DNA from: Phoronis australis
Lineage: Eukaryota > Animalia > Phoronida
Assembly (NCBI GenBank): GCA_002633005.1
Contig: NMRA01000070.1
Coordinates: 876,369 to 940,368, forward strand
Reading direction: 5' to 3'
DNA: 64,000 nt
In this document: in pieces, positions 11,390 to 34,336 of the stretch
Position numbering within the stretch: position 1 is the first letter of the stretch
Layout of the letters: every line of letters starts with the position of its first letter
The notes under the pieces: model-generated
What the model was told of the DNA's origin: nothing
Database searches by the model: none
What the model saw: only the letters and a program-made list of their open reading frames with translations
Program-made: the position numbers and the translations under genes

Positions 11390-11530
11390 GTATGCTCCTA
11401 CTGGGAAGGAGATGGCTGGCGATGAATTTTCGATGGCTCCAACTAATGTGGCGCCCCAAGTGGCAGTTTTGTTTTTGCAGATCTGTTGCTTTATCTCCTA
11501 TGGGACTCTGTTGATCAGCAATGATTCAAT
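11390..11530 (-). repeat. Fragment related to the core repeat of the 2011-3230 element
   Basis: Reverse complement reads ggagataaagcaacag...aactgccacttggggcgccacattagt...aaattcatcgccagcc, matching 2737-2830. Confidence 0.55.
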
Positions 11531-12584: not shown

Positions 12585-12623
12585 ACTCATTTTAATAAAA
12601 ACACTCAGCAGCCCGTCGGCCAT
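12585..12623 (-). CDS. Possible first exon of NDUFAF3 (MADGLLSVFIKM...)
   Basis: ATG in aatATGGCCG context at 12623, followed by a GTGAGT donor. The consensus donor gives phase 1 while the next exon needs phase 2, so this exon may be UTR or another exon is missing. The ORF at 12311 (MLPVIRIACPSPIRVFAKL, presequence-like) is an alternative. Confidence 0.25.
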
Positions 12624-12772
12624 ATTGGATCGCTCTTGTATACTTTCTATATATTACAGTACATATTGGTGCTGATGAGAGTGCCCGGGGTTCTACCAGA
12701 AAATTAAAAACACAATTGGTTACGAGGAGCCCACAATCATTAGTCAGTATACTATGCCAAAGCGCATGCGGC

Positions 12773-13200
12773 AACATGGTGTCCCAATATTTAGGTTCTC
12801 TGAGGGCTTACTGCTAATAGTCCGATACATGAGCTTCTGCCACTACTGTTTATTGAGTGGGAGTAATATCAATTTCACCTATCTGACTATTACCGGCTTA
12901 CTAGTTGTGTTCTTTAAAGATCAGTCAGAACATAAATACTATACATCTGAAAACGACTTTGCATCAAATAAACGCAGAGACTTACAAGACGAGACAAGTG
13001 ATTACCCCCCTCCAGTGAGCACCCCCACCCTACCCGGTTGCACCTCTCCAGTAGCCACCCCCACCCCCCGGTATCACCCCTCCAGTACGTGGTTAGTCAG
13101 TTTTCTGCGGTGTGGCGTATGGAGAAACATGGTGTCCGATACTTAGGTTCTCCGAAGGGTTGCTTGTTGTGTTTTTTAAAGATCAGTCGGAACATAAATG
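12773..13200. repeat. Local direct duplications flanking a C-rich ~35-bp tandem array
   Basis: aacatggtgtcc.ata.ttaggttctc at 12773 and 13126; taaagatcagtc.gaacataaat at ~12914 and ~13177; ctccagt...acccccaccc units at 13000-13087. Confidence 0.6.
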
Positions 13201-16018
13201 TGGCTTTCAGTGACAAGATATAGTAACAGAACAATTCCGTGAAGGTAAGTCTTTATTTCAGCAAAGAATTTACAACAATACGTAGTATTTCAATTAAATA
13301 TAATGCGAAATGTGCCAAAACGTCCGATAATTAGGTCACTTGACTGGCTGGCTAGATTTACAGCCCGCAATATATCCAAAGAAATATTATGGAAAAAATG
13401 TCAAAATGTCCGATAGATCGCTTATGCAGTTAAGTATATTGCAATACTTCAAAAATATTAGACTCTTTGTTTTCAACTTCCTACCTAAGAAGGCAAGTAG
13501 ATCCAAGAAGCTTCCGAATATTTCTTGCGAGGAAGGACGTCGCCATGATGGTTCTGTATCCATTTATTTTCTTTCGTGAAAACAAGTTTTCGTTATTTTC
13601 GCCATCTGGTGGAGGGCTCATAAACGTTGCACAAAAGACAAACTGACACGGTTAGTTCAATGGCGGAGCATCTTTCCCGAAGACTGGTGGACGAAAAAAA
13701 AACAAGAGAGGGTGCTAGATTCACGACTGGTAGACAAAAAAATCGGAAGACTCTGCAAAGAGAAAGTGCTAGAATTGCACTGAAAGACAATAGAAAGATG
13801 TTTAATCGAATTTGAACGATCTTTGGGCATTATACAGTACATATAGGGAGTATTAGTGAGTCGACTTATTTTCAGTCGAGAACTTTCCGACACCATTTGA
13901 TGCCATCTTCAAAACGCTCAGCTGTTACACTGAGCAAATGTCATGAAGATGTTTTGCTTTTGCACGAATGAGGTAACACAAATAAACTGCAAGAATTGTA
14001 TATTGATTTCTTTGGAAAAAATCAAAAGTTGCATAAAACAAAAACGCCCAGGCGCCGAGACTGAAATTGCAACAGTGGTAGCCTATTTGAAATGTCATCT
14101 TATCAAAAAACTCAATTTGGTCATGATAGGGATACCGTTATATTGCTATAATGGTACCTTTCTCATTTGCTATTTTTTTTCTAAACAGACACGAGCATGT
14201 AAGTCAGTTAATAGCAAATTGGTATAAGCATGAGTGCACCCCCGATAGTAAAAATGAAGCCGGGGGCTCGAGTTTTTGAGAATGTGGAGCTGTTATTAAA
14301 AACACAAGGTAAGATCATAACTATGAATTGTGCAATCGAATTTTGGTAGTTCCTGCCTTTTTAGTGGGTTTTTTGTCTCTCGGCGTTTTCCGGGGGGACG
14401 ACTGGACACGGCGCCCGGGTGCGAGCCCCCCGAGTCCCAGGGTGCACGCACGTCATGAAGTCAAAAATTAAATTTTACAGGCTTTCTACTTTCAGAAAAT
14501 ATGTACTTTAAGTGCTGGACTGGGCATAAATTTGCAGTTTTGTAGATTTCTCTTAATCAGATACCGAGCTGTCAAAAGGCCGGGTCTTTACTGACATGCA
14601 AGTCGCATGCAGTCGGCCCGAAATATAAAGTCGCCTGCCTGTTAGTTTTGACATTTTTAATTTTTGCAGAAAAAATATATGCATTTGAAGCTATTGTGAT
14701 ATGACTCATGAAGGGAGTACAAATGCACAGTCACATCACAGTTCTGAAAACTTTGCAAGTCTTTTTTGCGATTCACGTAACATTTAATGAACGCAATTTA
14801 GCACTTAGTTGAAAGTTTTACAAAATTCAGATGTGGTTCGAACGCTATGATCCAATGCCTGAGTACTCCTGGAGAACTGAGCCTAGCATTGGCGGCACAC
14901 CGGGCGGGGCTGCAGGACTATAGCCCCACGTCTCGTTTCAGCAACGAGTGCTGCGCCGCCCAATGGGAAGAAAAGGAGGGTTACGCCTCAGTCAGTGACC
15001 AAGAAGAGATCCTGCCGTCCGGTCAACCACTGCAGGTACTAATTTTGATAACACACATTAAGGACAGCGCTACGTAAGCTTGGCCTAATTTTTATCATTG
15101 TTTTTAGTTTTGACATTTAATATTATTTGACTCTGCCCGAAACGTTAACGGCATACCACTGCGAATTCCCCCGGCCACACGCGGGGTCGGGGCTTTCGGT
15201 AGCCGCCTCCGTCCAAATGAGCTGTGCTAACGGTTCTTGAAAGTTTCGGAGCGAACTGTTTATTCATGGTTAATCATGTGTGCAGTTTCAGAAAGCCACT
15301 GATAAAATATATTTTGTTGAGATCGATCGAGTTATCTGCCAACTAGATGAACTTTTTCATCAGAGTAGTACTACTGACGGTCACTTGAGCCTTGTCATGA
15401 CTACTATAGTAGGCGTCTCTCAATCATACCCGATGTCAGTCACAGTGGCGGAGTGCAGCGAAAGATTATCTCAGTATTCCTGGCCTGTGTGCGGAATACG
15501 GGATCAATGGAATATGAAGCAAGACGGGAAGGAAATGATAAAAAAGTAAACAATGGGCTACTTAGTTGGCTACATGACAATAGCGAACTCGGAAGAACCG
15601 TCGGGTGAAGTGTTGGACTCAATTGATGAAAAATTCTCCATGCCCCTTTCCACCCTTACATTTTTTTGGCTTTGACGGGGATAGATTTCACTGTGCAGCA
15701 CCAAAAGACTGATGCTTTTCGAAGTATCTCAACGGGCGATTCGGTTCCTCAGTGAGAGGGCAGTTGCCGGGTCACTAATGAGTTAGTAATTAGTGTCATA
15801 ACGGTCATGACTGGCCACCGGGTAGGCCCGTGTGTTGAGCCTGGTTACTTAATTCTGGTGTCAGTTGATCCACATAATTTTTCCCGTAGGTTCTGTTGTT
15901 GTTTTGAACGGCGGTAGCACCCGTCTTCGGTACTGGCGGCATTGACCGTAGTCGGATGCATCAGTAACGAGCCCACCCCGGGCAACGATAACATTTGTTT
16001 ACCCGGTAGAGTGCAGAT

Positions 16019-16187: not shown

Positions 16188-19100
16188 ATGGCTACTGGTC
16201 ACGTTTTGCCCGGGTTTGGGCCTCATATCTCCGGACTTCGCAGGGTACAATCGGCCGGTTTGCCTGGAGTGATGGACACAACTCGGCTACACATCCAGAG
16301 GAAGGCTCTAACGGGCCACGGACTCGACAGCACGCGGTTTCAGCGAATCAGGGAAAACGCCAAAAATGAGTGGTCAAGACCCAACATGTACCAAACCACG
16401 TATGACAACACACACTACGAAAAGGTGCTTGATGAACCGACGAGACAAAGGCCCTGTTCTCCAACTAGAACCAACAAACCTCACCCCCCACTGTAAGTAT
16501 GCTTGTCGTGACAGTATCCTTTCCGTATAGTACTGTAGACTTATTCAACCACGAGACAGACTCTCCAAATCATGACTGTTTTCACACAGTAACACCAATT
16601 GCGTCTCGTAATGTGTCAGACTTCAGTATTCGGTGGGTACACTAAGGGAATTATGCATGTTATTGTTGTTTCGTTTTCACGCCGGGCGCTTTCCCTTGGT
16701 CGTAGCGACCGCCCTACTATATATCGTCTACACGTCACTATGCAGAAGGCATCCTCCATCATACCTCTTAAAGCGGCATCAGTAAATCCATTCTTTCTGT
16801 CCAGAAAAAAACAAGTTTGGGTTTATGGAATTTACCGTTATAGAATTGGCCTTGCTGTATCTCTGACTCCGTTAAGTAGTGACCCCTTGGCGTGGTAAGA
16901 ATACTTACCAGCGTTCTGGTACACGCAGTTTTACAGTTTACACCGTTTTTACTAAAAACGAAGATGATCTTCGTTACCCACAACGGTTTTAACTAATTAA
17001 AATTAGCAATCAACATTTTGTGCGTTGCTGTCAGTCGTATTTATAAATAATTTCAATCCAAACAGTCTTTGGCTTGGGCTGAGGATTAAATGACGCATTT
17101 GGAAATATTTTTGTTATGCCAATTCAATAGCAGGACATTTAGCAGTTATAACTATGCAACCATGGCAAGATGGCGATTTTTAAATCTAGCAGGCCGACTT
17201 TAAATTTAATTTTGACTTTTCTATTCGATTGATGACCACGCTACCACAGGTAACATGTGCTGCGTTCCTCAAAGCACGACTCGATATTTCGACTGTGAAA
17301 TATCAAATCTGACTTAATTTTATTTGTGCATCTCTTTGATAGAGTGTTTTTGGAGTGTCGGCTGCATCATGTTGAGGGCTTTCACAATCCAGACGCGGCT
17401 TTAGGAAAAAATATATATAGACGTGAGTATGAGTGCAGTTTTAATGTTGTTGTTGATCTTGTTGACTCTGTTGTTGTTATTGTTATTTGTTGTTTTATGG
17501 TTCGTTGTTGTCGTCATCGTCATTATTTCCGTTTTTAACTTTGTGTCTATAAGTTGTTACAACGTTCCCGTGTAGGCTAATGTTGTCGACATGTTTAAAC
17601 TGTCTTCCTTTCTGTATTCTTCTGCCGTGGTCTTGTTTGTTTCATTTTTTTTGTTATCACACACTTCTTCTTTTTTGTATATTCTGTATTTATTTTGACA
17701 AAAACAAATTCATCCATTCAAGCATAATCATGGGTTATAACAAAGTAAAACATTGGCAATTTTTTTCATATTTCGCTTGCTCACGCCCGTCAGAAAGCAA
17801 AGCTTACTTTTCGCCAAGCTGGTTTCCCTCAGTTTGCGAGTAAGTTGATTTTTCATACATTAGATACGAATAGAATTTGCACTTGTTTTAACTGAACAAG
17901 CGCGTTAGTGATGTTTCACAAATTGTTTTGACCTTGGACGGGTATTCATGCCAGCCGGAAGCACAAAGTCGCTTGTCCATGACCTGTAGTCTTCCACGTG
18001 TTCAAATGTCCCATCGAGCTAGTAGTGTTCATGGAAATTACGTTATCAGTTTTACGGCCGAAAAACAACACTTTGGTATTATTGTTGGTTAGGATGGATT
18101 TCTTCTTTGACCAGAATTTTGAAACAACTAAATCCTATGTATGTTTTTTTTTTTTTAATTTGTTGCAATTCGGCACCAGCGCGTGAACTGCAACCGCTGA
18201 GGCTGTGGCCTGACTCTACGTTACGACCGAACAGCGAAAAATTTTACTTTGATTTGTTCTTTGTGTGTGTTTTCAGCTGACGGTGCAGTTACAGCTGGCG
18301 AACGTTCCTTCAGAAGGGGTTACAGGTCAAAGTTCATAGGTCGACCTAGCACTGCAGCAGTCGCACAATATAGTGACATGGTAGGTTTTTGTGATTGACC
18401 AATTTTTTTTCCTGACCACGTAGAGCCCAGGGGTAGAATCAGACACTTCACTTCTTAATGTTTTTATACGAGGACAAACTGAGACTTTTTAGTCTTCACT
18501 GTTGGCACATGCATGGAGATGATTCCATGGACTTCCAATCAGTGATGACTGGCTCACTTGTAAATTCCCAATATAGCGACGTGTGTTCACGATATATTTC
18601 GAACCATTTTGTGGTCAACACGATATGAAATGCGAAACAGTTTATAAAAATTGGAAACATACATGCCCGACCTCCAACAACAGTGTTTAGTTAATTATGG
18701 CGACTAACCGCGAAGACAAACCTAAGGCGGTTTCCATGCGCGCATTATTGGAAATCGATTCTTGTTGCTTTGTTTTCTTATTTACAATTGTTGTGTGGAA
18801 TTCCAGTTAATAAACGATTGGCAATATCGATATTCAGCATAGTTTCCAATTTGACACTAGATAGCAGATATACGTTCAGGTAGGTCTCCACATGCCTGCG
18901 AGGATTTTCATAACGTGTGTGGTGAATTTCGACTGTTACATGTACCTGTGTTCTAGGACACTGATATTTAGCTACGTTCTAACCAAAAGGCACTACGCCT
19001 GCATACACTATCCTTTCTTTCAATCAAGTAAGAAAGCTGGGCCTTTTTGTTTTACGTTAACATAGATTAAATTATGTGGAATAGATAGGTTAAAAACAAT

Positions 19101-22100
19101 GCAAGTTACGTCGCCTACGTGTACTCATGACTTTCATTTACTTGCGCGGTAGAGACCCAATTATTGAAAAATTCGATGGCGCATTGGTGGCTTGCTACAA
19201 CTGAAAATAAACCAAGAATTTTAGACAAAAAATCCACAAATTTGTTGAAGTGTCATTAATGTGACGTGGAGTGGAATTTGGGCGCCCAAAATAGTAGACA
19301 CGACTTCGATTACCATAATAACGATACAAGTATACATGTATTCTATTGACTCTACAATGAATTGATTGGGAAACTTTTTAAACTCTCAGCAAATGTACGT
19401 ATGACACACAAAGGACAGGATTTGCAAAAAAATTGAAATGAGAATTACTCAAATGCGTACTTTTTACGCTATTTTCGAGTCCCAATATGTGACTTTGTTA
19501 TAAGCAACAAAATTGGATTATTTTTTATTATCGGAAGCTGTCGTTCAAAATTTTAATGGATCGCGGCTCTTAAGAATACGGTTACAAAGGAATAACACGT
19601 ACCTTTGGCAGGCGGTATGCCGCGTATGCGAACGTATTTGGGGATAGAGTTTTGCTGTAATTGACAAATATTTGTTATATGCATGTAAATGGTTTTAATT
19701 CCATGTTACCTGTTTCGGAATAGCTCACCATGCTTATCGCCGTCGCTACCAGCGTGTTCTTTGTAATTGTTTACGAACAATTCTTTACGCGAACAGGCAA
19801 ACAGACAACCAGCATCTTGCAAACGAGTGCCGAGAGATATACCCTAGCACCCACCAATATCTGCCACTCTAAGGGGCGAACCAAACTGATTCAGATGTTA
19901 TCTGGCTCCCAGATTTTAACATCGATGGCTTATCGTTATTGAAATAGAGACGGGGCATTTTTTGTTTCAGATCTGTTGGAAAAGCGTAAGAACACATGTT
20001 GTTGAAATATGATGTCACCTAACACCTTTTTTATTTTAGGAAATCTCTCCCCAGGAGTTGCAACATCAGCCCTCGGAAGCCTGGTTAGCTCAATCGAATC
20101 AACGAAGTAAGTGTGGTTGGAAATTTAGGAATGGGATGCCCTCATCCTCCTCTTTGATATGACTGTTGAGTTTCTTATTGCCAAAAAGCTGCACTGGTTA
20201 CTTATTTAATATAGACGCTGAGGTTATATTTTATAATGGTGAAAATGGGATGTTTCGTGAACAGGATTTAAATTGGATTGAAACTCATCGGCAGTTTTGT
20301 AAGTTGCACCGAGAGGAGAGTGGGGGGTCCCATCTCTCGCCTAAGGAAATGACAAAAAACGAGGTCAGCAGAAACCTGTTTGTAGATATTACGCGGACAT
20401 TCTTCTTCGAAAAATATGTCTGGTTCATGTCTTGCAACATGTTACGTCTAAAGCGTGGAGTTTCACCTTCTTTACTGTAGCACACCTGGTTGTAATTGAA
20501 CCTATGACAAAGAAAATGACCGTACAGTCTGTAGTTTACTGTATTTTGGAGTTCCTGTATTGACCACACTCGCAAGTGAATCGACGATGCATTCTAATTT
20601 GAACACGTGACAAGAGTAGCCTGGTTAATAGTATGCATGTAGAAGAGTTAAAAAAACGTGGACAACCTTCCTGTGACATTTCAGCGTCGTCAATCTTGCG
20701 AAAGCAAACAATCAGTTTTTTCGCCAAACCTTACTGATATCGTGCAGGACATTTCTGCGATCTTGACATAGTGCCAAATCGAATCTATCCTTATACATGT
20801 AGTGAGGCTAAGATTACATATTCTAGGTTTGACATTGTCTCACTTGAGTGGAGTTTTTGTCTTATCATGGTCACGAATGTTTGTTTAAGCGGGAAGACAC
20901 GCTCAAGCGGCTTTAGAAAATATGGAACAAGCTAACCAACAGGTAATTTGTAAATTGATTGCATTTTCTATTTATTGTTTACATTCGAGTAATTTACGTT
21001 CACTCATTCTCCGGCTTTGATTCGGCACCGCTTGTCGAACCTTCGCTTTGAAAATTGTCGTCAGAGCTGTGTTTAGCTTCGTTTGCCATTTTGAATAGAA
21101 GTTTTGTCCGCTGGGAACTCAACCGGCTCATTTCTGTTGGTCTTCTGCAGAGCGTTCGATGACGTGGGTAGAATGAGGAAGACCGAAAACCTAATGCAGC
21201 TGCGTTTTGATCCATGTTCTCTGAGAAAATGTTTTCCTTCGCTTTTACCCCAGTTTGCTTGCTGCTCAATACTTTGGATGTTGACGGTTTGTCGAACTTC
21301 GCTGTCGACCCCCTGCTGGCTTTGCTTTTGGCGATGCTCGCTTGCGACTCGTTCCGTTGCTCGTACTGTGCTACTCGCGACCGCGACGACGGTGGATCAC
21401 GGTGCGCGTCGTGTCCATGGTGTTTTCCTTTGGGCTTAACGGAATGAGGTCTCCTTAGTGAGTTGTCTGTGGATCGGCCAGAACTGATGTGATCACTACC
21501 GTGTTTCTGGTGGGGCTTTGCGGTATCGTGGTCCGCCTTATGGGCGTGACCCAAGGTGCTCCCCTCCCGGCGATGTCCTGTCTTGCATCGCTTGACGGCG
21601 GTCACTTCTGCTTTCAAATCGGAATGTTGAGGGTTACTAACCAAATTGAGGGACGGCGTGTTCATAATTTCGTTCATCGTCATTATCGGATTTCCCTGAT
21701 AATCTGTGTCATATGCTGTTGGAAACTGCTTCCGTTGGCGCCATGCTGCCGACGCCCTCTGGCGAATGTCAGAAAGATCTTTCAGGGCCTGAACGTCGGG
21801 TCTGCTGGCGGTTGAACCTTCTCTGGAACCTAAATCTGATTTTATGGAAGCTGGAGCATAATCGAGAATCGATGCTGCCGAATAGCGATTGCTTGCCATT
21901 TTGTACCTACGAAAGAATGTGACATAAATAACGCTGTGTCACAAAGCCGTGACGATAAAGTTTTGCATGTAGTCAGTAATGTAGCTCCGCCTCCGGCAGT
22001 TGCCAGTCGTGAACGTCAACTACAATGTTGAAGCTTATGCCTAATGAATTAGTTAATACACTAAAGCATTTGAAGACACCCCTGCTTGTTTGTGCACCAC

Positions 22101-23488
22101 TAAATATTTGTGCAAAGTAATTTTTAAATTCTGCCCACTAGGCCTACTTGATTACATATCCCCAGCTTTACCTAACTAGGTCACAGTTGTTGGGCTTCGC
22201 ACGAAATAGGGGCCCTCGGGTTTACCGGGGAAGGGGACTTGCTCGGAACTTGTAGCTACAGGGGCTGGATGAAAAGTTTAGACAAATCAGGAGATAAGTA
22301 TAGGTGAAAAATTAAGGTCACCGGAGGGCAGAGAAATTGTTACGAACCGACGGAAAGTTAAAATTAGTGTGATCCCCTGACTTTTCATAACTCAGGGCTT
22401 AACATACAGTAGCCTTGTTTTTAGGGGATCCGATAACCACTTAAAATTCCGGAAAAACTGTAACAATTTCGCATGAAAACATGCGTGAACGGGCTTTATT
22501 ATAGTAAATGTCTGAGGTCATTTTTGTATGTTTCAGTCATTCAAGGAAGGCGTTGTTCCTTCGCTTCATCGTTTCATGCGCATGGCCGGAGCTGAAGGTA
22601 CAGTGTATGTTTTTATGATACAACAAAATGTTCAGCCATTTTATAGTCTATGCTATGTTGGAGGTGTTTAGAGAGGTGTTAATCAATGACAGACTACAGT
22701 GACAACTGACTGTAGTCATGTCTTTTTCATACATTTTACTCGACACTCGGTTGACTGTACAGTGCCGTAGTTGTCAAGCTTTCACTTAAATTACTTTGCT
22801 CTAGAACGTTCAATTCCTGCATGGATTAAAAAGCGTCATCACATGACGTGGCTTTTATTTCCCACGTCTGGACTCCGAGCTTCATTTGAAGCAGTTATCG
22901 CCAGAGGGAGGGCGCGCTCCCCGATCGAGGGTTATAATTCTTCCAAATCTACAAGTTCCTCCATTTCTCCAGGCAAGATTTTCAAACCTCACTAAAGATA
23001 AATCCCAAAACTAAAAATGGCAATATTTGTTCCACTTTCGTTGTACTAGACGTCGATCACTGTGGATCAAACTGCATACGCGAGCGTGTTAGAGTTCCAA
23101 GGTAGTGCTCATCACATTTCCCGCCAAATTCTTACCTGACGCGCTAGGTTACCTTTGGCAGGCGGTCATCAATGACTTCACGCAGATACATGTACGAATC
23201 AATTTACCACTCTTGACCATGTTTACAGAACGCGAGGCAATGAACAAGTTGGTGGGACGGTTGGGTGGCGTTGAGCCCAATGTGCGGAAGGACCCCAACA
23301 TGATGATACCCCACCTGTCCATGGATGCACAGGGTACACGTCGTCATGATGACATAAACGGTGCACGTCGGGTCACATACAGATACAAGCCTCTCAGGGG
23401 CGATTTTCTTATACATCCCGACTATCCGCCGACGCTGAAACACCACCGACTACCCGATTGGCCTCAGCCAGATCCTTACAGCTCGTAA
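16188..23488 (+). CDS. Uncharacterised 341-aa protein, 7 exons: 16188-16492, 17343-17422, 18277-18380, 20040-20106, 20215-20363, 22537-22597, 23229-23488; ciliary/testis microtubule-inner-protein-like motifs
   Basis: All six introns are GT-AG with pyrimidine tracts, and phases (2,1,0,1,0,1) concatenate to one 1026-nt frame ending TAA. Motifs YQTTYDNTH, RPCSPTRTNKPHP, GVVPSLHRFM and DFLIHPDY resemble short motifs of axonemal/sperm proteins (recall, not searched). Confidence 0.8.
21000..21899 (-). CDS. 299-aa basic Ser/Arg/Lys/His-rich protein with intronless CDS, nested antisense in intron 5 of the 16188-23488 gene; member 1 of the LG[FL]xxSxxYP family
   Basis: 900-nt ORF with aaaATGGC start context; splice-acceptor-like ttctttcgtag just upstream (possible 5'UTR intron); minus-strand AATAAA at 20971-20976; shares the C-terminal motif with ORFs at 28685 and 31506. 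Confidence 0.8.
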   Translation of the reverse strand: MASNRYSAASILDYAPASIKSDLGSREGSTASRPDVQALKDLSDIRQRASAAWRQRKQFPTAYDTDYQGNPIMTMNEIMNTPSLNLVSNPQHSDLKAEVTAVKRCKTGHRREGSTLGHAHKADHDTAKPHQKHGSDHISSGRSTDNSLRRPHSVKPKGKHHGHDAHRDPPSSRSRVAQYEQRNESQASIAKSKASRGSTAKFDKPSTSKVLSSKQTGVKAKENIFSENMDQNAAALGFRSSSFYPRHRTLCRRPTEMSRLSSQRTKLLFKMANEAKHSSDDNFQSEGSTSGAESKPENE

Positions 23489-24441
23489 ATGAAAGGATGA
23501 TGTATAGAACTATGATAAATGATAGAGTTTTGACTCTCATGAGAAGACAGTTTACCTGTATTTTAGTCTGGTGCGTTTTGAGGAAGTTTAGTTTACTGAC
23601 AAAATCATTCCACTTAGCGATACTGACATGCAACTGCTGCCCTCTGTGCAGATGCAAGACATTGGAGAGAAAAGCTTATTGTAGCCAATTGTTTTTTGCG
23701 TCCACGGAAAGCAGCCCTCGTGTGTGGGAATGCCAACTTATGTGTCCCGTTTTTCAGTAAACGCAAGTATTCTGGATTCAGGTCAATTCAGGGTGGTACT
23801 GAACTATTTCAAAACTGTGAACTACGAAACTTGAAGCCTTGCTTCATTTTTTATTAGTCATGTTATGTTTTGAACTCCCTATTTTCATGAATTAGGTCTC
23901 TTGGTTTGCTGTCATTATTTTTCACGTCAATGCCTCCGAAGTCTTCTTGGCGTGCAAAACTTACAGCGATCGGGTTCAAACCTTAACGTATAATAAACTA
24001 GGATTATCACTTTTTTTCGACTGGGGTCCAACATGCCATTCAAACAAGGGTATGATTACTGGGTATATGGTATTCTGTTCCCTTCATTATATATCATCAT
24101 TTTTATGAAAGATTTATGTTTACGATTAAAAATAAATTCTTGGTATTTTCGATGTCAAGCTTTGCCGTGTTTGCGTTTTCCCACGTATTCATTAGCAAAA
24201 CCACTTTGGGCTCCGGTCTTTTTGGGTATTTTGTTTAATCCAGACTGGCAATGGTTTTTGATGTGGCACGTGATATATTTGTTGTATAATACAAAGCATG
24301 GGATATCGGTTTGGACCCCTAGAACGCATGGTAATTATTTGTCTATGAATGCAGATGAAAGCTTTTCAAATCCAAGCATGGAAACGGGTCACATGGTTTC
24401 GAGTTGGGCATGAGCAAGCGTATGCACAGTTGCGTGGTTTA

Positions 24442-25018
24442 TTACCTCGATTGTTCCCTGCGTGCCGCTAGGTCGGGCGGTAGCCGTGCCAGCACGCAGG
24501 TATCACTTAATTTTCCTCGGGAATTTTTTGTACACCAGCGTTTTTGATTGGCTGGTCGAATTCTCAACCGGCAGCACTTTACGCAAACAAACTGGCATGA
24601 GTGATGGACTGAAGTGTAAATGTTGTTCAGACAAATCGGTGCTTGAAATTCATGTTCAGGAAAAGTGAATCCAAGAAATTGTGGTTGCGCCTTTTCGGAG
24701 TGCATCTTTCAGCTGTCGATGACTTTTGTTTACGGTACTGTCCTGTATTCATACAGTGTGAATAACACACCGGTTAAATCGGCCAGATATGTGCTCATTG
24801 TACATGTACATGTATGTGCTTCAAGCACGCGGCTATTAAACATCATTGCAGAGTTGCCGCGACGCCATTTGCATGACAAGGCTAAAAACCGTTCACAGTC
24901 CGCCATTTTTTTACTGCTGAGGTTACATCAACCAATGCTAAAGCGCGTGCCACCGCGTGATACCTGCGTGCTGGCTAGGCGGCACGTTGGGGACCGGCGA
25001 GGGTTTACAACAGGGTAA
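24442..25018. mobile_element. MITE-like element with inverted repeats
   Basis: Perfect 19-bp inverted pair gccagcacgcaggtatcac (24488-24506) / gtgatacctgcgtgctggc (24957-24975); weaker pairing extends to ttacc...ggtaa ends. Confidence 0.6.
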
Positions 25019-27582
25019 AAAAGCCGATTTCAAAATCGGTTAAAGCACAATCAAATGAGATCCACATTCGGTTGCCACGTTTGGTAAAAAGTGATGTCAT
25101 ATAACTATAAAGGGTGGGTTATTTTGAAGTACCATCATTCTAGGTTTCTAAAAAATTTTTGCGCAAGAACCACAGATTTCCGTACGTTCAAAACAACTAA
25201 CCAGCCCAAAAACACGAAACCTGACCTCAGGAACTCCGGTGATTGAACAGCAAACCATGTCTGAAACATTTTGTTCAATTTTTCTGATACCGCTTTCAGT
25301 AGCTTCAAATTTTGAGGTAAAGCATCTTCAAGTACTTTCCAGTTGTTTTCTGCATTTGAGTGTTAAAATTGTCAATAATTTAACGTAACTTATACTATAT
25401 TGAATTTGTTATTTGCCTTTTTATCGGTGAAACTCATACAACTAATCTGTCAGCCAATATTAACATAATCTATATTTAGCTGTTTTTCAGATTATTCAGT
25501 AGTTTCTCCAAAATATTTCCAAAACTGAAATAACACAAAAATATTATTTTGAATTTCGAGTGCTATCGTTTATTAATTTCTTGTGACATGTTCGCAACCT
25601 CGTGAAAGAAGAACATTTGCTTGAAGAATTGAGGAAAGAGAAACTGGCCAGTAGGTGACGCAATATTTCATGGCAAAAGATCACACAACAACTTGAGCAG
25701 CAGAACAACGTAGAACGCCAATCCGTCATAAGTTTTCTAAAATTCTCATATAATAAAACAACATATCACAGCAACTAAATAAAGAAGGAGGATTATTTTT
25801 TCATCAAACGAAGCCTCACAGAAAGTGTGGAGTAGTGCTTCAGTCACCGCCAGGTGTCCTGTCCGACCCCGGGTTTCCTGTTTCAAAGGTCAGGGTTTGA
25901 GTTTTTCGGGCTGGTTAGCTGTTTTGACGGTGCGGGAGTAAACTTCGGAATATCTGTTTTACACCGGGGTTCCTGTTTCCATGGATGGAATAGTGGACTT
26001 GCACATTATATGTGGCTACCGGAGGCAGCGTGTGAAATTGGAATACTACATTGTACATGTATATTCATCGTGGGTTGTCAAGTTTCGCGTTCCAGCGATC
26101 TCAAGATTAGCTAACAGTGTTGGTGGGAATTGTTAATACAGAAATCCTTCATGTATATCGCCAGGTTAGCGACAGATTCCCTCTGTTTTTTGACATGTTT
26201 TACTTATCGTTGCATTCACCGTGTTTAGCTCACTAAAACGACAACTGAGTTACAGGGTAAGCCTTGTACTCTCATATAACCAGTCTCGTATTACCCCTTA
26301 CCGTAACAAGATTCTATTACCGTTACATCCGTACACGAGTTCTCTGAAATGTACAAACTCAAACTTTTGAGAGATATTTCTAATGAAATTATAGGAGGAT
26401 GTGATAGACACGTAAACGTTATGTGAACAACCACAAAACCTCAAATTTTGATGGGACTCTCCTGAACAGTACAACTTATTACAAAGTAGCATTTGCACGG
26501 GAAATCTGTTGCCAAGCAAGCATGTACATGAATTATTTTATGTGTGCTGTTTTACTGTAATGATATAAACTTGTGGACGGATGTTTTAAATCAGTAAGAG
26601 CCAGGCACATATTGGTTTCCGTCGAGCGTTCGAAGGAGCGAACTCCCTTGATATTCAGTGATTGCATTGTGATAGGGGTATAATATTGGATCAGTCAGCA
26701 TTCACATTGAGAAGACTTTGTCTGAGGTTACCATTGGCGAGGAAATGACCGCGTCCAGGTTTGCATTGCATAGTTCCATCTCATTCTCGAGGGCAATGTA
26801 ATTTTTTTCTAAGTAGTTGAGCTGCATTGGGTTAAGAAAATATGCTTCCGAGGCATGGAGTAAATGGGGTGGTTGTAAAAATAAACCTTCTAAATGTCTT
26901 TCTAAACGACTACGGAATAACACAGAAATCGGTGATATCAAGACGGGACGACCCCCTTTCGCAGCTGACATTTCCCTCAGTAGTGCTGAGTTTTCCTGCT
27001 GGGTGGCGTGGAAATTAATGTATTTTTTTCAGGAACCATTCTCATCTATTCGTGGAATTGAGCTCCATAATTTATCCACGAGATGAAATCTCAAAAATAC
27101 GTTTACAGTTTACTAAATTATAGTTCCGTTATCAGTTAATGCAACGTTTGAGTGCTTTCATAAAATCATAAACACTTTAAGTTTGATGGACTGTGAATAT
27201 AGATCATGTAGAGACATTGTTAACAATGCTAAGTAATTTGAAAGAAATTATATCTATGTAAAGAATTTACTGTGCAGAAGGTTTTGGGACAGCTTTAAAA
27301 AATCTTAGCACTATTGGATTCCACGTAAGCTCATGTTATGAGTTCGGGGTCTTTATATTGGAGTTTGTCAACATGTTGAAGATAACCGGTAATAGAAAAC
27401 TGTTGTGTAACATCAAAATATCCAAAGTATGGACGTAAACAGGATATAAATGTGGCCCCCCAAATATGTAGAATTCGAGCGGTAAGGAACAGTAGATTTT
27501 TTACTTTTTGTACTTGAGTGGCGTTGTTCATTCAATCCGCCAAAAGAACGTTCGTGACGATGTTTGGTGCCATTGATAGAAG

Positions 27583-28027
27583 TGTTGTGAAGCGTGACTT
27601 CCGGTTGCGACGACGCGTGCAGTCAGATAAAGCCTCTCTAAGCCGCTTGGCAAGTGCCAATAGCCTCTAGGTCGAATGGTTTAGATGCTTGACCGTTGCT
27701 CGTGCAACCTGGGTTCAAGTCCCGCAGAGACACGGAAATTTTCTACTAAGGAAACTCCATGATTAACCTTGAGATGTAAACCTGGGGATGGAGAGAGGCG
27801 ACCTGGTAGTGGTGGATTCAGAACACAAAAGAGAGCGTTGCAGAGGTCGAATACAAGGACGTTAGGGTGTTGCTGAGATCCAAAAGCCAGGGAGCACGCC
27901 TGTTGTGAAGCATGACTTCCGGTTGTGACAACACGTACAGTCAGATAAAGCCTCTCTATTAAGCCGCTTCCCAAATGGCAATTGCAACCTGGGTTCAAGT
28001 CCCGCCGGAGACACGGAAGTTTTCTAC
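27583..28027 (+). repeat. Duplicated tRNA-derived (SINE-head-like) repeat, two copies (27583-27746 and 27901-28027)
   Basis: Both copies share tgttgtgaagc.tgacttccggttg...cagtcagataaagcctctcta and gcaacctgggttcaagtcccgc...gagacacggaa.ttttctac. Copy 1 has an A-box-like segment and a B-box GGTTCAAGTCC in a degenerate cloverleaf (27663-27732); copy 2 has lost the D/anticodon part. Confidence 0.6.
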
Positions 28028-28684
28028 AGAAATATCCCGTAGGAGTCAGATGGCTGGATTATTTAGCCTTTGGAACGAACTGACACTTTAATGTCAGGTC
28101 CTATCCAACCACTGTCTAGATTATTTACCGAGGAAAAGAATATCGTGAGCTTGATATCATACTTATGATATTTCGTGATATCTTTAGTTACAGTTTTCTA
28201 AAAGAACCAATGGAATCGTCTATCTTACTTTAATGGGTTATATGTTACAACTGGCCTGCAATCAAGACTGTCTGGTACAGCCTGGTCAGCTCGACGATTC
28301 TCATTATTCAAGGAGCAAACTGGAGAAGGGTCACATTGTCACTATTCAAGCTTACTCCAAAAACACAATACCTTCATTTAAACAAGCAGAATAGTCCAAA
28401 CATTTCTATTCTCGACCAAAACATAAAATGAACGACGTCGGCGATGTGTCAAATTTTACTTCCCAACTGCACAAACCTACATGTATCACGAAAATAGATT
28501 CTAAACCATTTTAGCTAAAAGGCATCAGGATTCCCTACTTCTAAGACCAAACAAAAATACTAATGGGAATGTTGGTCAACTTTCCTTTTCGTTTTTATTT
28601 TGCTAATTAAGTGTACATGTTGTCTGATCTGCATCTCGGTCTACTGGTACCCTTGCACGATCCTAGCGTTTTAAAACTGTCGCA

Positions 28685-29083
28685 CTATGTGCCTGCTTTT
28701 GGTTTAGACAACGACCCACTCTTTGTTTCAGTTGAACCTTTTTCTAAAGAAACGGAACCTTTTCCAGCATAACGTTTGGTCAGTTGCGAGCTCAGTCTCG
28801 GCCCACTCGTTCTATGCTTTATGTAAGGATCAGGGTGCTGATTCGGGTACTTCTTGGAAAACGTGAACCCCAAGTTGGCGGCATTACTCTTCAGGTCATT
28901 CGAAAAGCAGCCAGAGGTTGAGGCTTTTTCTGATGATCTATTACTGGAATCCTTGCGCGTGTTGTCTTTTGAAAGCTCCTTAGAATCTCTAGTCTTCTTG
29001 TCGCTGGAGGCTTTCCGTTTTGCAAAGGATTTGTTTGCCGAAACTTTCTCCATTGCATTTTCGTTTTTGTCAGTTTTCCTCAT
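28685..29083 (-). CDS. Intronless 132-aa Lys/Ser-rich protein; member 2 of the LG[FL]xxSxxYP family
   Basis: ORF contains FSNDLKSNAANLGFTFSKKYP...RLSSQLTK; minus-strand AATAAA at 28594-28599; CRE palindrome upstream at 29231-29240. Confidence 0.72.
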   Translation of the reverse strand: MRKTDKNENAMEKVSANKSFAKRKASSDKKTRDSKELSKDNTRKDSSNRSSEKASTSGCFSNDLKSNAANLGFTFSKKYPNQHPDPYIKHRTSGPRLSSQLTKRYAGKGSVSLEKGSTETKSGSLSKPKAGT

Positions 29084-29230
29084 AAAATGTTGAAGTTAGC
29101 AACGTGCGCCAGTTAACTACCTTCGTTCTTACAAATACATTATTTTTGTGGCGTTGTTTCGTTTTTCAAAGTTTATTAAGTTATTGTTCAGTAAATATGA
29201 CAGGGATATGTTTTTGTGGCACAACAGTAG

Positions 29231-29240
29231 ATGACGTCAT
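29231..29240. promoter_or_regulatory. CRE/ATF palindrome ATGACGTCAT upstream of the 132-aa gene
   Basis: Perfect TGACGTCA core about 150 bp 5' of the ATG at 29083. Confidence 0.4.
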
Positions 29241-31505
29241 GTGACCTCAAACTGTCCTAACTCACACGACAATTCTTCTGAAATTCAGCGACGGCTTACT
29301 GCAGTGCATTCCACTTGTCCAATCCCAACTAGTTTACACGTACCAAACTTAACTGTTCCTCGTCCCACATTTCAATAAAATGCTTCACACTGATTTAATC
29401 GAATAATATTTTCCCCGCATTACTACATTTGTGTATTTCTCGGTTGGTAGATTTTGTTGGTTTGGCTAAATCTGTCCAATGACTTATCTTAAAACGTAGA
29501 CCGAAACTTTAGGTTAGTTTTCTTGAAAGAGCATTCAAGACCCTAAAGTCAGTGAATGTGTGACTTCACCGGTGGCCGATCCATTAATACGACGTGTACA
29601 ATATCTGCGATGCACGTGTTTGTTACGTATTTACATGTACATGTATGTAACCACGTTGATGAGGATTCTAGCTATCAAACAGCAAGGTCAGTTTCATAAA
29701 AGATAAAACACGGGTTCTTTCAAAAGAGCGATTACTTGTTCAAATTTAAAGTTGACCACAAACACTAACACTGTGGAAAAATAGATGATCTGCATCAGAG
29801 TTGTGTCCGCTCAGTTATTGATTAGTTAAACAATATATTCCGGCCAACAACATTCTGGTGTTGGCGTTAGACCCGGTCGGTCAAAATTAGGCTACACGGT
29901 TATTTTATTGCAAGATTTGCCCAATATCTGAAATGGACGATATCGCACGTTTGGCGTGCGACTAGTGAGGCAATACCTATGAGAGAGCAGTGACCGAAAG
30001 TGCTACAGACCATATTGATGACGACCAAATGTGTTACATTACGCTACCCTACGAGTCCTGAGTAAAAGTCGTAGGCCTACTAGACCTCCTTTCATCCTTT
30101 ACTGGACCTTGATGGCGACCAAGGCTCTCCCGTTGTCTGGTTCAAGAAAAGTGATTTAGAAGTCAAGTCGGAAATTTGATCTTAAGCTCTACACAGCTTT
30201 TTCAGAAAATAATTAAACATCACATGAGGAAAACATGAAGTATCTGATAATATACACTGTACATGTATACAACAGCTAGTTACTGAGATAACTCCTTAAA
30301 CCCTACTTAGAGTGCGATACGTTCGTGATTTTTTGGCTAAACATTTTTCACCCGCAGATATAAGACCAAAGTCTGTCTTAAGTTTTAGGGCCTGGCGTTA
30401 AACGAAGCAATTCTCTGCAACCCTCGTCAACCCAAGCATGAACCCTCTGACAAAGTTTGCTAAATCTGTGAACGTGGCTAACTCGTGTGAAAATGATATT
30501 GACCGCTGCAAGAAAAGAATGTTTCCTACGAGGCAAAGGATGCAACTCGTAGTGCGGCGAGGGAATGATTTAGGTTCACGTAAATTATGTGATTACCACT
30601 CATACATAAAGTAGGAAAGAGAATGTCAGTTGTCGAGGAAAACATTGAAACAGGCGTCTCAAATAGTGCAGTACGCTTTCTACGCTGACAAAGTGCTAAA
30701 ACAGGAGGGTTATGACAAGTGTCAAAGCCAGCCGGTTACCAAAAAAATGATAATTTTGAAGCACCAGATAAGAAGCCCGGCCCTGCGGAAGAAAGCAAAG
30801 AATCAACAGGTACATGTAACTTGAGTAGACGGGAAAAAATACACCACAACTGAAAGCCTTTGGAGTGTTTTATGTCCACCGTGACGTCAAGTTGAAAACC
30901 GGCAAAGAAAGGCAGACAACTGGAAATAGAACACAAATTGATTGCCGGAATCGAAACGTATGAGAGGTAAGGCACTCAGAAAGCACCACGTCAACAGCAA
31001 GTCCGCAAACCAAAACTAATGTTTTTTTTTATTTTTTAGCCAAAGCGGTTAGGACTTAAAAACATAACACATCCATCATGTCTTGAAGACGACGGGTTTG
31101 AAAACTTCAAAAACACAATGAGCAATTTTAAGCAGTAATCGCCTGTGAACTGAGCGACTTGTTGCACGTTCTGTTTACACATCATTTTAAAAAATTTCAG
31201 TCGCATATTAGTCGTTAATTCATCGTATTTTTAGCATGAACGAGACGTAATGTTTGTGTCTCTACTGGAATCCCATTAACAGCTAGTAGTTGCCGGTCTA
31301 TCAGTTTCAAGCCGACAGTCAAATAGATGAACATGTCTAACATCCATAGAAAAATATGTTTTAATAAATATAATATTAATACATCAGATTATCCCTTCTC
31401 CCCGTACCTGTTACAGAGGTACATGCCTGCAGTACGCCACAAAGAAGTCACTTTATTTGCACGATCTTTACGCTCGTATTTTCACTGCAGCCTTGTTTGA
31501 GGTAC

Positions 31506-31949
31506 TTATTTTTCTTCGGTTAAATTTTTTGAGCCATTCTGACTTATCGTATGTTCTTTCGTCGATTGCGACCTGAGACTTATTTTTGGCGGGTGTTGGG
31601 CACTATATATAGTGAAGGAATCCTGACGTTCGGGGTACGTCTGGGACGGTGTTAATCCCAGTGCCTTGGCATCGTCGTCAGGGCTACCCGAGAAACCGCC
31701 GCAGCCTGCATCCGAATGCCGTTCACGCTTGACCTCCGTCACGCCTAAAGACATTCGTTTCCCGTAATCCGTGCTCTTGGCTGGCCCACGCATAGTCCCG
31801 AAATCCGCTGATGTAGACACTGTTGATTGCAGCTTATTAACTTTTCCGCGTTTGCCGGTGCCACTATCCTCATCAATAATTTGTGGTTGAGTTAAAGTAA
31901 TGTTTGGCTTTTGACGTGAGCTCGAGGACTCTTTGACCTTTCTCTCCAT
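31506..31949 (-). CDS. Intronless 147-aa basic protein; member 3 of the LG[FL]xxSxxYP family
   Basis: ORF contains FSGSPDDDAKALGLTPSQTYP...SLRSQSTK; minus-strand AATAAA at 31452-31457; CRE palindrome upstream at 32021-32032. Confidence 0.72.
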   Translation of the reverse strand: MERKVKESSSSRQKPNITLTQPQIIDEDSGTGKRGKVNKLQSTVSTSADFGTMRGPAKSTDYGKRMSLGVTEVKRERHSDAGCGGFSGSPDDDAKALGLTPSQTYPERQDSFTIYSAQHPPKISLRSQSTKEHTISQNGSKNLTEEK

Positions 31950-32010
31950 CGCATTTTCACCAAAAGAACGCTTTCATAGTGAATTTACTCGACATTATTT
32001 ACTAGGAATT

Positions 32011-32032
32011 GTCACAAAAGCATGACGTCATG
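32011..32032. promoter_or_regulatory. CRE/ATF palindrome CATGACGTCATG with adjacent GTCACAA upstream of the 147-aa gene
   Basis: Perfect 12-bp palindrome about 70 bp 5' of the ATG at 31949. Confidence 0.4.
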
Positions 32033-32882
32033 CAATGACAGTAAGATTGTTTTTCATATGTCATATCGTACTTGATTTTATTTTTCATTTTATTTTTTCT
32101 GCAGAGAAAGGATGTGATTATATCCGAAAACTACAGTTGATCCATTATCAGATTGAAACAAGGTAGAGTCTAAAAGAAAGGATGATTAATGAAGCATTGT
32201 TTGAAAGCAGTTGTTTTGTTTTTCCATGTCAATGATACACCTGCATTGTACTCGGTGATTGTGTAGTAGTTCTGAGATAACTTTCCACGAGTACTTTTGA
32301 ACTTCGCAGCCTAATTCGCACAATGTGTGAACGTTTCCAATGTAAAACGTTTCCGTGTTTAAAGATGAAGTATTCCAGTGAACTTCTTAATAAGAAATAC
32401 GTCTGTACATGTTTTTTAAAGAATTGGTTTTGCAAAAAGTTTTAGTAGCTCGCTTTTGAACATTATCATATAAATGACACAGTGTCAATTCGGTTAACTT
32501 AATTGGTTGTCAGTTTAGTGTTCCACTCGTATATGTATATGTGAGAACAGGCATTGCAATAAAATTCTTACTAAAAGAGTTCCAACACTGCTAATAGAGG
32601 GAGACCTACATCCTGTTCCATGAGATCTCTCTCTCAAGTCTGACCGAAAGTGGGCTAACTTAAGGCTAAATGTCCCCTTTCATGAATTTTCTTAAAAATC
32701 CAAAATTAAGACAGATATCTTACATGTAACATACACGTACACCCCTAGGACTGGAATGTCAAATCCTGAGCGTGACGCGAGTAATCATTATAGTGTTTAT
32801 TTCAAGCGTGCAAGGGCCTTGGTCCAAAGTACAATTACAGCAACTACAGTACAGCCACTGAATTTTTAGACTTCGTCCGGGC

Positions 32883-33072
32883 TACCTCACGCCTGGCCAG
32901 ACTGGAGCGCAACCGGAACACAGGCGTGACAGAAATCAGTCGGGGTCGCCTCAAGCCTACTCTCCGGGTAGTCCTCACGCTTACCTCCGGTTTAGTTAAC
33001 GCCTTCCTCACGCCTCGTTCACGCTTTCTTCGCGCCTAAGTCAAGCTTACCTCACGCTTTCTTCACGCCTTC
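32883..33072. repeat. Degenerate 11-bp minisatellite (cctcacgc core)
   Basis: Repeated ...ctcacgc/ttcacgc/gtcaagc... units at 11-bp spacing; the same unit recurs at 34102-34164, running into the gap. Confidence 0.65.
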
Positions 33073-34164
33073 GGTAGCTCTAGTAACCATGGTAGGGCAC
33101 CGGGCTAATTAGTAAAAATACATGTCAAGTCTTGATTGCCTGTCGTTTCGGTCAAGTTGCAAAGCTTTATAGTATATTATAGAGTAGCTTTGCAAGAAGT
33201 CATCTATCACACTTGGGTTCCGACTAACTCTGTAATTCCTCGTGTTATTCATACAAACGTCTTCCTTCAGCTCGTCTTGTGTTACACTTACAGTACATGT
33301 ACATTTTCAATTTACGTCTTAAGAGCCAGTCCCAGCATCAACGACAAACATGTACAGTAACCACGGTTAGTAAATACGAATAAAAGCGACCCTCTGCCCA
33401 GAGTCTTCTTTACATGGCTGTGGACTCCTTGAAACTTGCCACAGATGGATATAGTTAATTCGCCCTAAAAATAGCCTACGCATCTTGTGAAGTATTGTGT
33501 CACTCCGTAAATTTTTGCACCGCACTGGCGTACAGAAAATTTCAATAGGCCGCCCATCTGACATACCCATCCCTTACTGCAAGCAAATGTTTTGACTTAA
33601 AAGTCCTGAATCCGTAGTGCAGTTCAAGTATTTGTAGCCCACTCCCCGCAGTACATGCGTTTCGACTGAGTACACAGTATCCCCGGGGTACTTCTAAACT
33701 AAAACAATAATAGCGGTCATCTGTTTGACTCGTCAAATGCATGGGCGTGATCAGTTTTCTCCGCATGATGCCGGAACTTGGGATCAATGTGCTCAGAATT
33801 GACATGCTATGCTCCTTCATATCGTGAAGGCAATTGAATAATTCCGCCGTGTACACGCGTGTTAAGATTCTTTATTAGTTTATATAAAAACAAATAATTA
33901 TATATAAGTGAAAAGCAAAGTCCACAGGTCTGTTTTCTGAAGTGACTTAAGATTTGAGACGGAAATTTTGGTATTTTACTGCACGTGACGATTTCAAAAA
34001 AATTAAACGTCACATGAGCAAAAGTCTATGAGAATACACACATCACTGCTAGTTACTGATGTAATTTTAATAAATTACTTTATCATCTGCGATGCAGGTA
34101 AACTCACGCCTAACTCACGGTAAGCTCCGGGTACAGTCACGCTTAGGCTCACGCCAGCTGTCAC

Positions 34165-34336
34165 NNNNNNNNNNNNNNNNNNNNNNNNNNNNNNNNNNNN
34201 NNNNNNNNNNNNNNNNNNNNNNNNNNNNNNNNNNNNNNNNNNNNNNNNNNNNNNNNNNNNNNNNNNNNNNNNNNNNNNNNNNNNNNNNNNNNNNNNNNNN
34301 NNNNNNNNNNNNNNNNNNNNNNNNNNNNNNNNNNNN
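34165..34336. other. Assembly gap (N run)
   Basis: Run of N characters. Confidence 1.

What the first reader, a model, noticed from the sequence alone, without database searches (positions are those of the whole stretch)
21000..31949. Cluster of three basic proteins sharing an unrecognised bipartite motif
Seen in sequence: three co-oriented minus-strand ORFs (299, 132 and 147 aa) within 11 kb have otherwise unalignable low-complexity S/K/R-rich N-termini. They share an ungapped 21-aa block FS-x5-[ND]-A-x2-LG[FL]-x2-S-x2-YP (FSENMDQNAAALGFRSSSFYP; FSNDLKSNAANLGFTFSKKYP; FSGSPDDDAKALGLTPSQTYP), followed 14/16/18 aa later by L[SR]SQxTK (motif regions 21102-21227, 28775-28905, 31557-31694). Each has AATAAA 20-90 bp after the stop. 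Protein-level conservation with diverged DNA argues for old paralogues under selection. I do not recognise the motif as any named domain. Inference: a lineage-specific family of disordered basic proteins with a docking motif, possibly sperm/flagellar or chromatin-associated.
Basis: partly seen in the sequence, partly recalled or inferred. Interest (0 to 1): 0.85.

Follow-up and report, generated by a model that had tools for sequence, protein, structure and literature searches.

The report
Three orphan sperm-type genes, shared motif
Three neighbouring intron-free genes in an invertebrate animal are switched on together in two of three RNA samples, share a short promoter module and encode predicted floppy, basic proteins whose only common part is a two-piece motif found in no database searched; they are likely sperm-cell proteins that use the motif to dock onto a common partner, which is not yet identified.

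Summary
Three minus-strand ORFs (299, 132, 147 aa; pI 9.4-10.2) share a bipartite motif well beyond chance (leave-one-out HMMs), conserved at protein rather than DNA level. All three are transcribed with no splice joint listed. They are on in RNA runs X2 and X3 and off in X4, while a housekeeping neighbour is on in all three. New here: each 5' end carries a shared promoter module, CGTCA-N5-7-TTGTG[A/C]CA (a full CRE in B and C), found nowhere else in the window. Gene A sits antisense in an intron of a co-expressed C4orf51-like gene. No homologue or family was found, though relatives as distant as the three are from each other could be missed. AlphaFold gives disorder plus one 7-residue helix. 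They are not protamines and fail the published microtubule-inner-protein motifs. Best reading: a lineage-restricted family of spermatid docking adaptors. Tissue and partner are inferred, not shown.

The parts
21000..21899 (-). Gene A coding sequence, 299 aa, 33 kDa, pI 9.9; single exon; nested antisense in host intron 20943-22536
   Evidence: minus-strand reads depth 22-40 in X2/X3, 0 in X4, no joint inside it
21165..21227 (-). A motif block 1 (FSENMDQNAAALGFRSSSFYP)
21102..21122 (-). A motif block 2 (LSSQRTK)
21937..21954 (-). A promoter module CGTCA-N5-TTGTGACA (half CRE); 5' end of A only estimated at about 21900-21990 from bin depths
20971..20976 (-). A polyadenylation signal AATAAA; an X1 contig ends 10 nt further, at 20961
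28685..29083 (-). Gene B coding sequence, 132 aa (122 aa if started at Met11, 29053), pI 10.2; single exon
   Evidence: depth 224/194 in X2/X3, 0 in X4
28844..28906 (-). B motif block 1 (FSNDLKSNAANLGFTFSKKYP); predicted helix at residues 64-70
28775..28795 (-). B motif block 2 (LSSQLTK)
29217..29239 (-). B promoter module with full CRE TGACGTCA (29232-29239) and TTGTGCCA; many molecules end at 29216 (5' end)
28594..28599 (-). B polyadenylation signal AATAAA; an X1 contig ends at 28577; some X2/X3 molecules reach 28448-28462
31506..31949 (-). Gene C coding sequence, 147 aa, pI 9.4; single exon
   Evidence: depth 33-75 in X2/X3; X4 0 in the 3' bin and 0.77 in the bin that runs upstream to 32251
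31632..31694 (-). C motif block 1 (FSGSPDDDAKALGLTPSQTYP)
31557..31577 (-). C motif block 2 (LRSQSTK)
32010..32030 (-). C promoter module with full CRE TGACGTCA (32023-32030) and TTGTGACA; many molecules end at 31989-31993 (5' end)
31360..31365 (-). ATTAAA, likely the signal used by C (X1 contig match ends at 31351); the nearer AATAAA at 31452-31457 is read through
16188..23488 (+). Host gene: seven-exon, 309-aa C4orf51-like (DUF4722-like) protein; co-expressed with A, B, C; its intron 20943-22536 holds gene A
   Evidence: splice joints; reading frame; homologues; family lead

Best explanation
A, B and C are transcribed, intron-free paralogues that share a two-piece protein motif and a CRE-containing promoter module, and they likely act in developing sperm cells as predicted disordered adaptors whose motif would fold on binding and dock onto one common partner, most likely a structure of the sperm tail or its cytoskeleton. 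Shown: open frames, strand-specific transcription, on/off co-expression, the motif, its protein-level conservation, the promoter module at the 5' ends, nesting of A in the host intron. Predicted: disorder with one short helix ending in the Leu-Gly-Phe/Leu cap. Inferred: one ancestral single-exon gene was duplicated locally with its promoter; a CREB/CREM-type factor drives the three in post-meiotic male germ cells (about 0.65); helix plus Tyr-Pro and the LxSQxTK element bind two sites 14-18 residues apart on one partner (about 0.75), while the free S/K/R-rich tails drift and may carry phosphorylation sites; the partner is flagellar or cytoskeletal rather than chromatin (about even odds).
For: Expression: A 22-40x, B 194-224x, C 33-75x in X2/X3 and 0 over A, B and the 3' bin of C in X4, while the NDUFAF3-like (DUF498) neighbour is spliced and expressed in 3 of 3 raw runs (14.7/14.6/23.6), which also fixes read orientation. 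The host gene follows the same on/off pattern; its gastropod homologue P0001 is nearest to DUF4722/C4orf51 clusters (scores 0.95 and 0.91), then to ciliary microtubule-inner-protein clusters (0.84-0.88, leads only); C4orf51 is listed as male-reproductive-tract-specific (PMC7436996, one passage). Promoter module: 3 matches in 64 kb, one per gene, 0.04 expected; a null allowing for post-hoc choice gave 6 of 1500 random triplets any such shared key. [quoted passage not shown] Motif: 13 invariant residues, 4-5 aromatics concentrated in 42-46 aa, third codon positions diverged, the only confident part of both AlphaFold models (pLDDT 71-81). No hydrophobic signal or membrane stretch.
Against: The runs have no tissue label; there are only three raw runs from one study and they appear to be different individuals or pools (variants at 10686, 16403), so X4 may differ by sex, tissue or stage. 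CREs also serve many somatic genes, 4 of the 6 full CREs in the window lie elsewhere, and the CREM evidence is from mouse. The proteins match none of the published Mn, SNYG or NWE patterns, nor simple GFG/PYG patterns, and no solved cilia structure. A, B and C lack the X-box-like site seen before the host gene. The C4orf51 link is indirect: through a 38%-identical homologue, with a direct Pfam hit of only E 0.025 in 1 of 6 homologues. No translation or binding evidence exists.
Confidence: 0.4

Rival explanations
1. Spermatid chromatin proteins of a transition-protein kind: the basic S/K/R tails bind DNA transiently during histone replacement and the motif binds a histone, chaperone or import factor.
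For: pI 9.4-10.2, Ser 14-18%, short basic NLS-like runs in all three, a His-rich stretch in A (13 His before the motif), single-exon genes with CRE promoters. An earlier unchecked note describes intronless transition-protein-like genes with a shared promoter in a chimaera (e1-8166139), as an analogy only.
Against: K+R only 16-23%, Arg 6-8%, net charge 0.03-0.13 per residue, with many acidic residues; no histone H1 winged-helix, HMG or protamine Pfam match; C is nearly neutral (net +5).
Confidence: 0.2
2. Proteins of a somatic, cAMP-responsive or heavily ciliated tissue (nerve, gill or tentacle, larva), not of sperm; the motif is still a binding element.
For: Tissue of X2/X3 unknown; the host gene resembles ciliary proteins and has an X-box-like site 133 nt before its ATG; CRE sites are general (PMC3091680 passages).
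Against: Complete shut-off in X4 of four neighbouring genes plus a non-coding transcript and the male-tract-specific mammalian look-alike of the host fit gonad better; most tissues of such animals carry some cilia (own knowledge).
Confidence: 0.2
3. Diverged members of an already described family (for example a sperm microtubule-inner-protein module) that the searches could not reach.
For: Leave-one-out scores of the true paralogues (15-32 bits) lie below the roughly 35 bits needed for E 0.001 in the 1.84-billion library; in simulation only 72 of 300 variants at 50% uniform identity were recovered. B has a near-Mn stretch with one extra residue. No language-model look-alike search was obtained for A, B or C.
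Against: With the 13 invariant residues kept, 277 of 300 variants at 40% and 202 of 300 at 30% were recovered, yet the search returned only 3 repeat proteins whose best single match is at most 11.3 bits; Pfam and PDB gave nothing.
Confidence: 0.15
4. Non-coding or decaying transcripts with chance similarity.
For: No proteomics; A-C pair alone not significant (90 of 2000 shuffles).
Against: Leave-one-out recovery, codon-position pattern, intact frames, shared promoter, polyadenylation signals at transcript ends.
Confidence: 0.03

Closest known systems
Small sperm/ciliary microtubule inner proteins with short tubulin-binding modules (Mn, SNYG, GFG, PYG, NWE; PMC10973386, passages)
   Same: Short module of a roughly 7-residue helix with conserved Gly and aromatic anchors, sometimes one per protein; neighbourhood and co-expression with a gene that resembles this class
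   Different: None of the published patterns is met; those modules are described as conserved across ciliated species, this one has no detectable relative; no X-box-like site in these promoters
Sperm nuclear basic proteins: protamines and protamine-like proteins (PMC11607694 and PMC12216123, passages)
   Same: Basic, small to medium size (14.5-33 kDa, within the 6-40 kDa given for PL), likely testis expression
   Different: pI 9.4-10.2 against 12 or more for protamines; Arg 6-8% against up to 80%; K+R 16-23% with many acidic residues; no winged-helix domain
CREM-tau-driven post-meiotic genes of mammals (PMC3091680 passages; PMC2853129 abstract and outline)
   Same: Full or half CRE within tens of bases of the transcript 5' end; on/off expression
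   Different: The second box TTGTG[A/C]CA is not one I could tie to a paper (one search listed one Drosophila paper, not read); no evidence here that this animal uses CREM in spermatids
Nested young or duplicate genes in introns (PMC5174743, search listing with abstract start)
   Same: A is a single-exon duplicate lying antisense in an intron
   Different: A and its host are co-expressed in the same samples rather than divergent, as far as bulk runs show

Membership tests
Protamine (P-type SNBP) | Highly Arg-rich, pI 12 or more, 3-10 kDa (PMC11607694, PMC12216123 passages) | tested here: not met
   Arg 6-8%, pI 9.4-10.2, 14.5-33 kDa
Protamine-like (PL) SNBP | Rich in Lys and Arg (about 35-50%, figure recalled) | tested here: not met
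   K+R 16-23%, net charge 0.03-0.13 per residue
Protamine-like (PL) SNBP | Histone H1-type winged-helix domain (in the larger PL forms) | tested here: not met
   no Pfam family; model of B has one helix only
Protamine-like (PL) SNBP | Major protein of sperm chromatin | not testable with these tools
   needs sperm nuclear extracts
Mn-repeat microtubule inner proteins | [TS]-[TS]-x4-[YF] unit (PMC10973386) | tested here: not met
   0 matches in A, B, C; one x5 near-match in B only
SNYG-module microtubule inner proteins | [ST]-N-x-x-[ILVY]-G plus associated helix (PMC10973386) | tested here: not met
   0 matches in 3 of 3; the conserved spacing here is [ND]-A-x2-L-G
NWE, GFG and PYG modules | Signature residues NWE, GFG or PYG | tested here: not met
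   simple pattern search, 0 in 3 of 3; PDB profile search no cilia hit
Microtubule inner proteins (any) | Located in the doublet lumen | not testable with these tools
   needs cryo-EM or localisation
Helix-turn-helix / TPR / integrase repeat (PF14882) | Second helix or tandem repeats after the A-x2-LG turn | tested here: not met
   shared 10-12-residue turn only, best single match 11.3 bits; one helix, single copy
Paralogous gene family A/B/C | Significant mutual similarity under protein-level constraint | tested here: met
CREM-type post-meiotic gene | CRE or half CRE near the transcript start | tested here: met
   full CRE 16 and about 30 nt upstream of the 5' ends of B and C; half CRE at A
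CREM-type post-meiotic gene | Expression in haploid spermatids, dependent on the CRE | tested here: inconclusive
   on in 2 of 3 unlabelled raw runs
C4orf51 / DUF4722 (host gene only) | Match to PF15849 | tested here: inconclusive
   E 0.025, below cut-off, in 1 of 6 homologues; none for host exon 1; Atlas feature scores 0.95/0.91 for P0001

The most novel reading that the evidence does not exclude
The helix-LG[FL]-x2-S-x2-YP ... LxSQxTK element is an undescribed two-site microtubule-binding module, an addition to the seven known inner-protein modules, used by a lineage-specific battery of sperm-tail proteins under a CRE-plus-TTGTG[A/C]CA spermatid promoter code that would show CREM-like control of late sperm genes in a protostome-like invertebrate.
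Probability: 0.15. Interest if true: 0.65.

Novelty: new variant of a known kind. Interest (0 to 1): 0.36.

Why it matters
Orphan testis genes are common and this kind of cluster is not surprising in itself. What is useful is that three highly diverged copies isolate a 13-residue binding signature and an 18-20-base promoter module, both directly testable: the first by pull-down or localisation, the second as a search key for a spermatid regulon in an invertebrate lineage. Such single-exon, low-complexity genes are easily missed by annotation; none of the three exact sequences is in the 15-billion-protein collection.

Tried and rejected
No own genome or related genome was available, so no genome-wide copy search, synteny or dN/dS across species. 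Word-based search with B: 8 candidates, none at E<=1; with the motif alignment among longer proteins: 316 candidates, none at E<=10. Full HMMER search of 1.84 billion representatives: 3 hits at E<=0.001, all rejected as sums of weak matches in repeat proteins (two with TPR-type Pfam hits, one integrase-repeat protein). PDB sequences: 2 antibody chains at E 0.7-1.5, rejected; host exon 1 and host homologue profile: 0 hits. Metagenome and viral contigs: 146 and 58 pattern matches, none confirmed; these collections are poor in animal DNA. Pfam: only sub-threshold DUF3723 and RWD for B. Rfam and tRNA scans of the window: nothing. No DNA repeat of 30 nt or more links the three genes. Recalled linear motifs (LC8, PP1 RVxF, SxIP, PIP box, SPKK) absent. 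The run index listed no RNA holder on record; only what the lays showed is used. A possible 5' intron in A (AG just before the ATG) got no read support. No language-model look-alike search was obtained for A, B or C. No fold search was run, because the models hold one short helix. No complex prediction was run, as no candidate partner was available. Literature searches found no description of this family, but they cannot search by sequence and the species is unknown, so this is weak; supplements were not read.
Full report
Setting. The window is animal DNA: about 40% GC, spliceosomal introns, an NDUFAF3-like DUF498 gene. The nearest named relatives of a neighbouring gene are gastropod proteins at 38% identity and an unnamed one at 49%, which suggests a marine invertebrate, perhaps a lophotrochozoan without an annotated close relative (inference). 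No whole genome was available.

Observation. The three ORFs, motif blocks, spacings and AATAAA positions are as reported. A profile from any two motif regions ranks the third first among the non-self fragments of 2817 six-frame fragments (E 4.1e-7, 1.7e-8, 0.0028), and no fourth copy exists in the window. Pairwise, A-B and B-C beat 2000 and 1999 of 2000 shuffles; A-C does not (90 of 2000 reach it). Across the 28 motif codons, positions 1 and 2 are 61-75% identical and position 3 25-50%, and no DNA repeat of 30 nt or more joins the genes: old duplicates held at protein level.

They are expressed genes. Four public runs of one species label were laid. In stranded runs X2 and X3, minus-strand depth is 22-40 over A, 194-224 over B and 33-75 over C. 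In X4 it is 0 over A, B and the 3' bin of C (0.77 in the bin that extends upstream of C). The minus-strand NDUFAF3-like gene is spliced and expressed in 3 of 3 raw runs (14.7, 14.6, 23.6 in its last-exon bin), so X4 holds the organism and the absence is real. No joint lies inside A, where all joints were listed; none is listed in B or C, where 7 weaker joints were hidden. 5' ends pile up at 29216 (B) and 31989-31993 (C); for A only an estimate of 21900-21990 was possible. Contigs of X1 (RNA only by guess) end 10, 17 and 9 nt after AATAAA, AATAAA and ATTAAA. The runs have no tissue label and seem to be different individuals or pools.

Nesting and neighbour. A lies antisense within intron 20943-22536 of a seven-exon plus-strand gene (16188-23488, 309 aa) with the same on/off pattern. 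Its first exon found 6 homologues among 77 candidates. One of them, P0001, is nearest by language-model features to DUF4722/C4orf51 clusters (0.95, 0.91) and then to ciliary inner-protein clusters (0.84-0.88); the direct Pfam match is weak (E 0.025 in 1 of 6); 5 of 6 homologues carry the published Mn unit at one position, while the host exon has a one-longer variant. C4orf51 is listed as male-reproductive-tract-specific (PMC7436996, one passage). This is the main, and indirect, reason to read X2/X3 as containing testis.

Shared promoter. B and C have a perfect CRE 16 and about 30 nt upstream of their 5' ends; the window has 6 such sites against 1.0 expected. All three genes carry CGTCA-N5-7-TTGTG[A/C]CA on the coding strand, the only 3 matches in the window (0.04 expected). 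Because the pattern was chosen after looking, I drew 1500 random triplets of 200-nt stretches: 6 shared any comparable two-box key, and this was the only key shared by the three real upstream regions. In mouse, CREM-tau acts in haploid spermatids through full and half CREs (PMC3091680, passages; PMC2853129, abstract and outline); CREs also serve somatic genes. An X-box-like site precedes the host gene but not A, B or C (pattern recalled).

Proteins. All are predicted disordered (FoldIndex -0.13 to -0.31), lack a signal or membrane stretch, and are moderately basic. AlphaFold with a three-row alignment gives one helix (B 64-70) and pLDDT above 70 only around block 1; such shallow models are weak evidence. 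The picture is a short element that folds on binding, followed by a second element at loosely fixed distance, in freely drifting tails (inference).

Relatives. None found in Pfam, PDB, word-based searches, the exact look-up, or metagenome and viral contigs. The full HMMER search gave 3 proteins, all repeat proteins scoring by adding up matches of at most 11.3 bits to the A-LG-x5-YP turn. Limits: the true paralogues score 15-32 bits when left out, under the roughly 35 needed; simulated variants were found 279 of 300 at 70% and 72 of 300 at 50% uniform identity, and 277 of 300 at 40% if the invariant residues were kept. Close orthologues and motif-faithful relatives are therefore probably absent from the library; distant ones are not excluded.

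Mechanism and comparison. Best reading (0.4): spermatid-expressed disordered adaptors that dock through the motif on a shared partner, leaning to the tail or cytoskeleton because the module resembles inner-protein modules in build (short helix, Gly and aromatic anchors) and the net charge is too low for DNA packaging. It is not a member of the protamine, protamine-like, Mn, SNYG, NWE, GFG or PYG classes by the features tested (definitions from PMC10973386, PMC11607694, PMC12216123, passages). Rivals: transition-protein-like chromatin role (0.2), somatic ciliated or neural role (0.2), undetected known family (0.15), artefact (0.03).

Verdict. A real, undescribed three-member family with a testable motif and promoter code, of a familiar general kind (orphan single-exon gonad-type genes). 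Interest 0.36.

Noticed in passing
window 16188-23488 (+): Spliced 309-aa gene with mollusc homologues, C4orf51/DUF4722-like; most homologues carry a published Mn unit, which hints that C4orf51-type proteins are unrecognised sperm microtubule inner proteins (C4orf51 is not mentioned in the main text of PMC10973386).
   Followed up: partly
window about 22040-22116 (+), joint to 22537: An alternative plus-strand exon inside the host intron, just upstream of gene A, splices into the host's sixth exon (9 reads each in X2 and X3); the A promoter may be bidirectional and give a short host isoform.
   Followed up: no
window about 29700-31112 (+): Plus-strand transcript between B and C, present in X2/X3 (depth up to 15) and absent in X4, with no stop-free frame over 70 aa; likely a non-coding RNA.
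   Followed up: partly
window 29058 and 31954 (-): B (at Met11) and C share the start context AAAATGC[A/G]ATGGAGA, with an out-of-frame ATG 5 nt upstream opening 55- and 20-codon frames; may tune translation.
   Followed up: partly
window 42023-45944 (-): A 1022-aa and a 179-aa ORF without Pfam match are separated by a 98% identical 300-nt duplication around a single N at 45420; probably an assembly artefact splitting one long single-exon gene. Expression not tested.
   Followed up: partly
window about 4440-13500 (-): NDUFAF3-like (DUF498) housekeeping gene, five exons by read joints, divergent from the host gene; used as expression control.
   Followed up: yes
window 60048-61979 (+): 643-aa leucine-rich-repeat ORF with a hydrophobic N-terminus.
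   Followed up: no
window 24400-25900, 27580-27990, 32845-33500: Interspersed repeats drawing diverged reads from all runs; assembly gap of N at 34165-34336.
   Followed up: no
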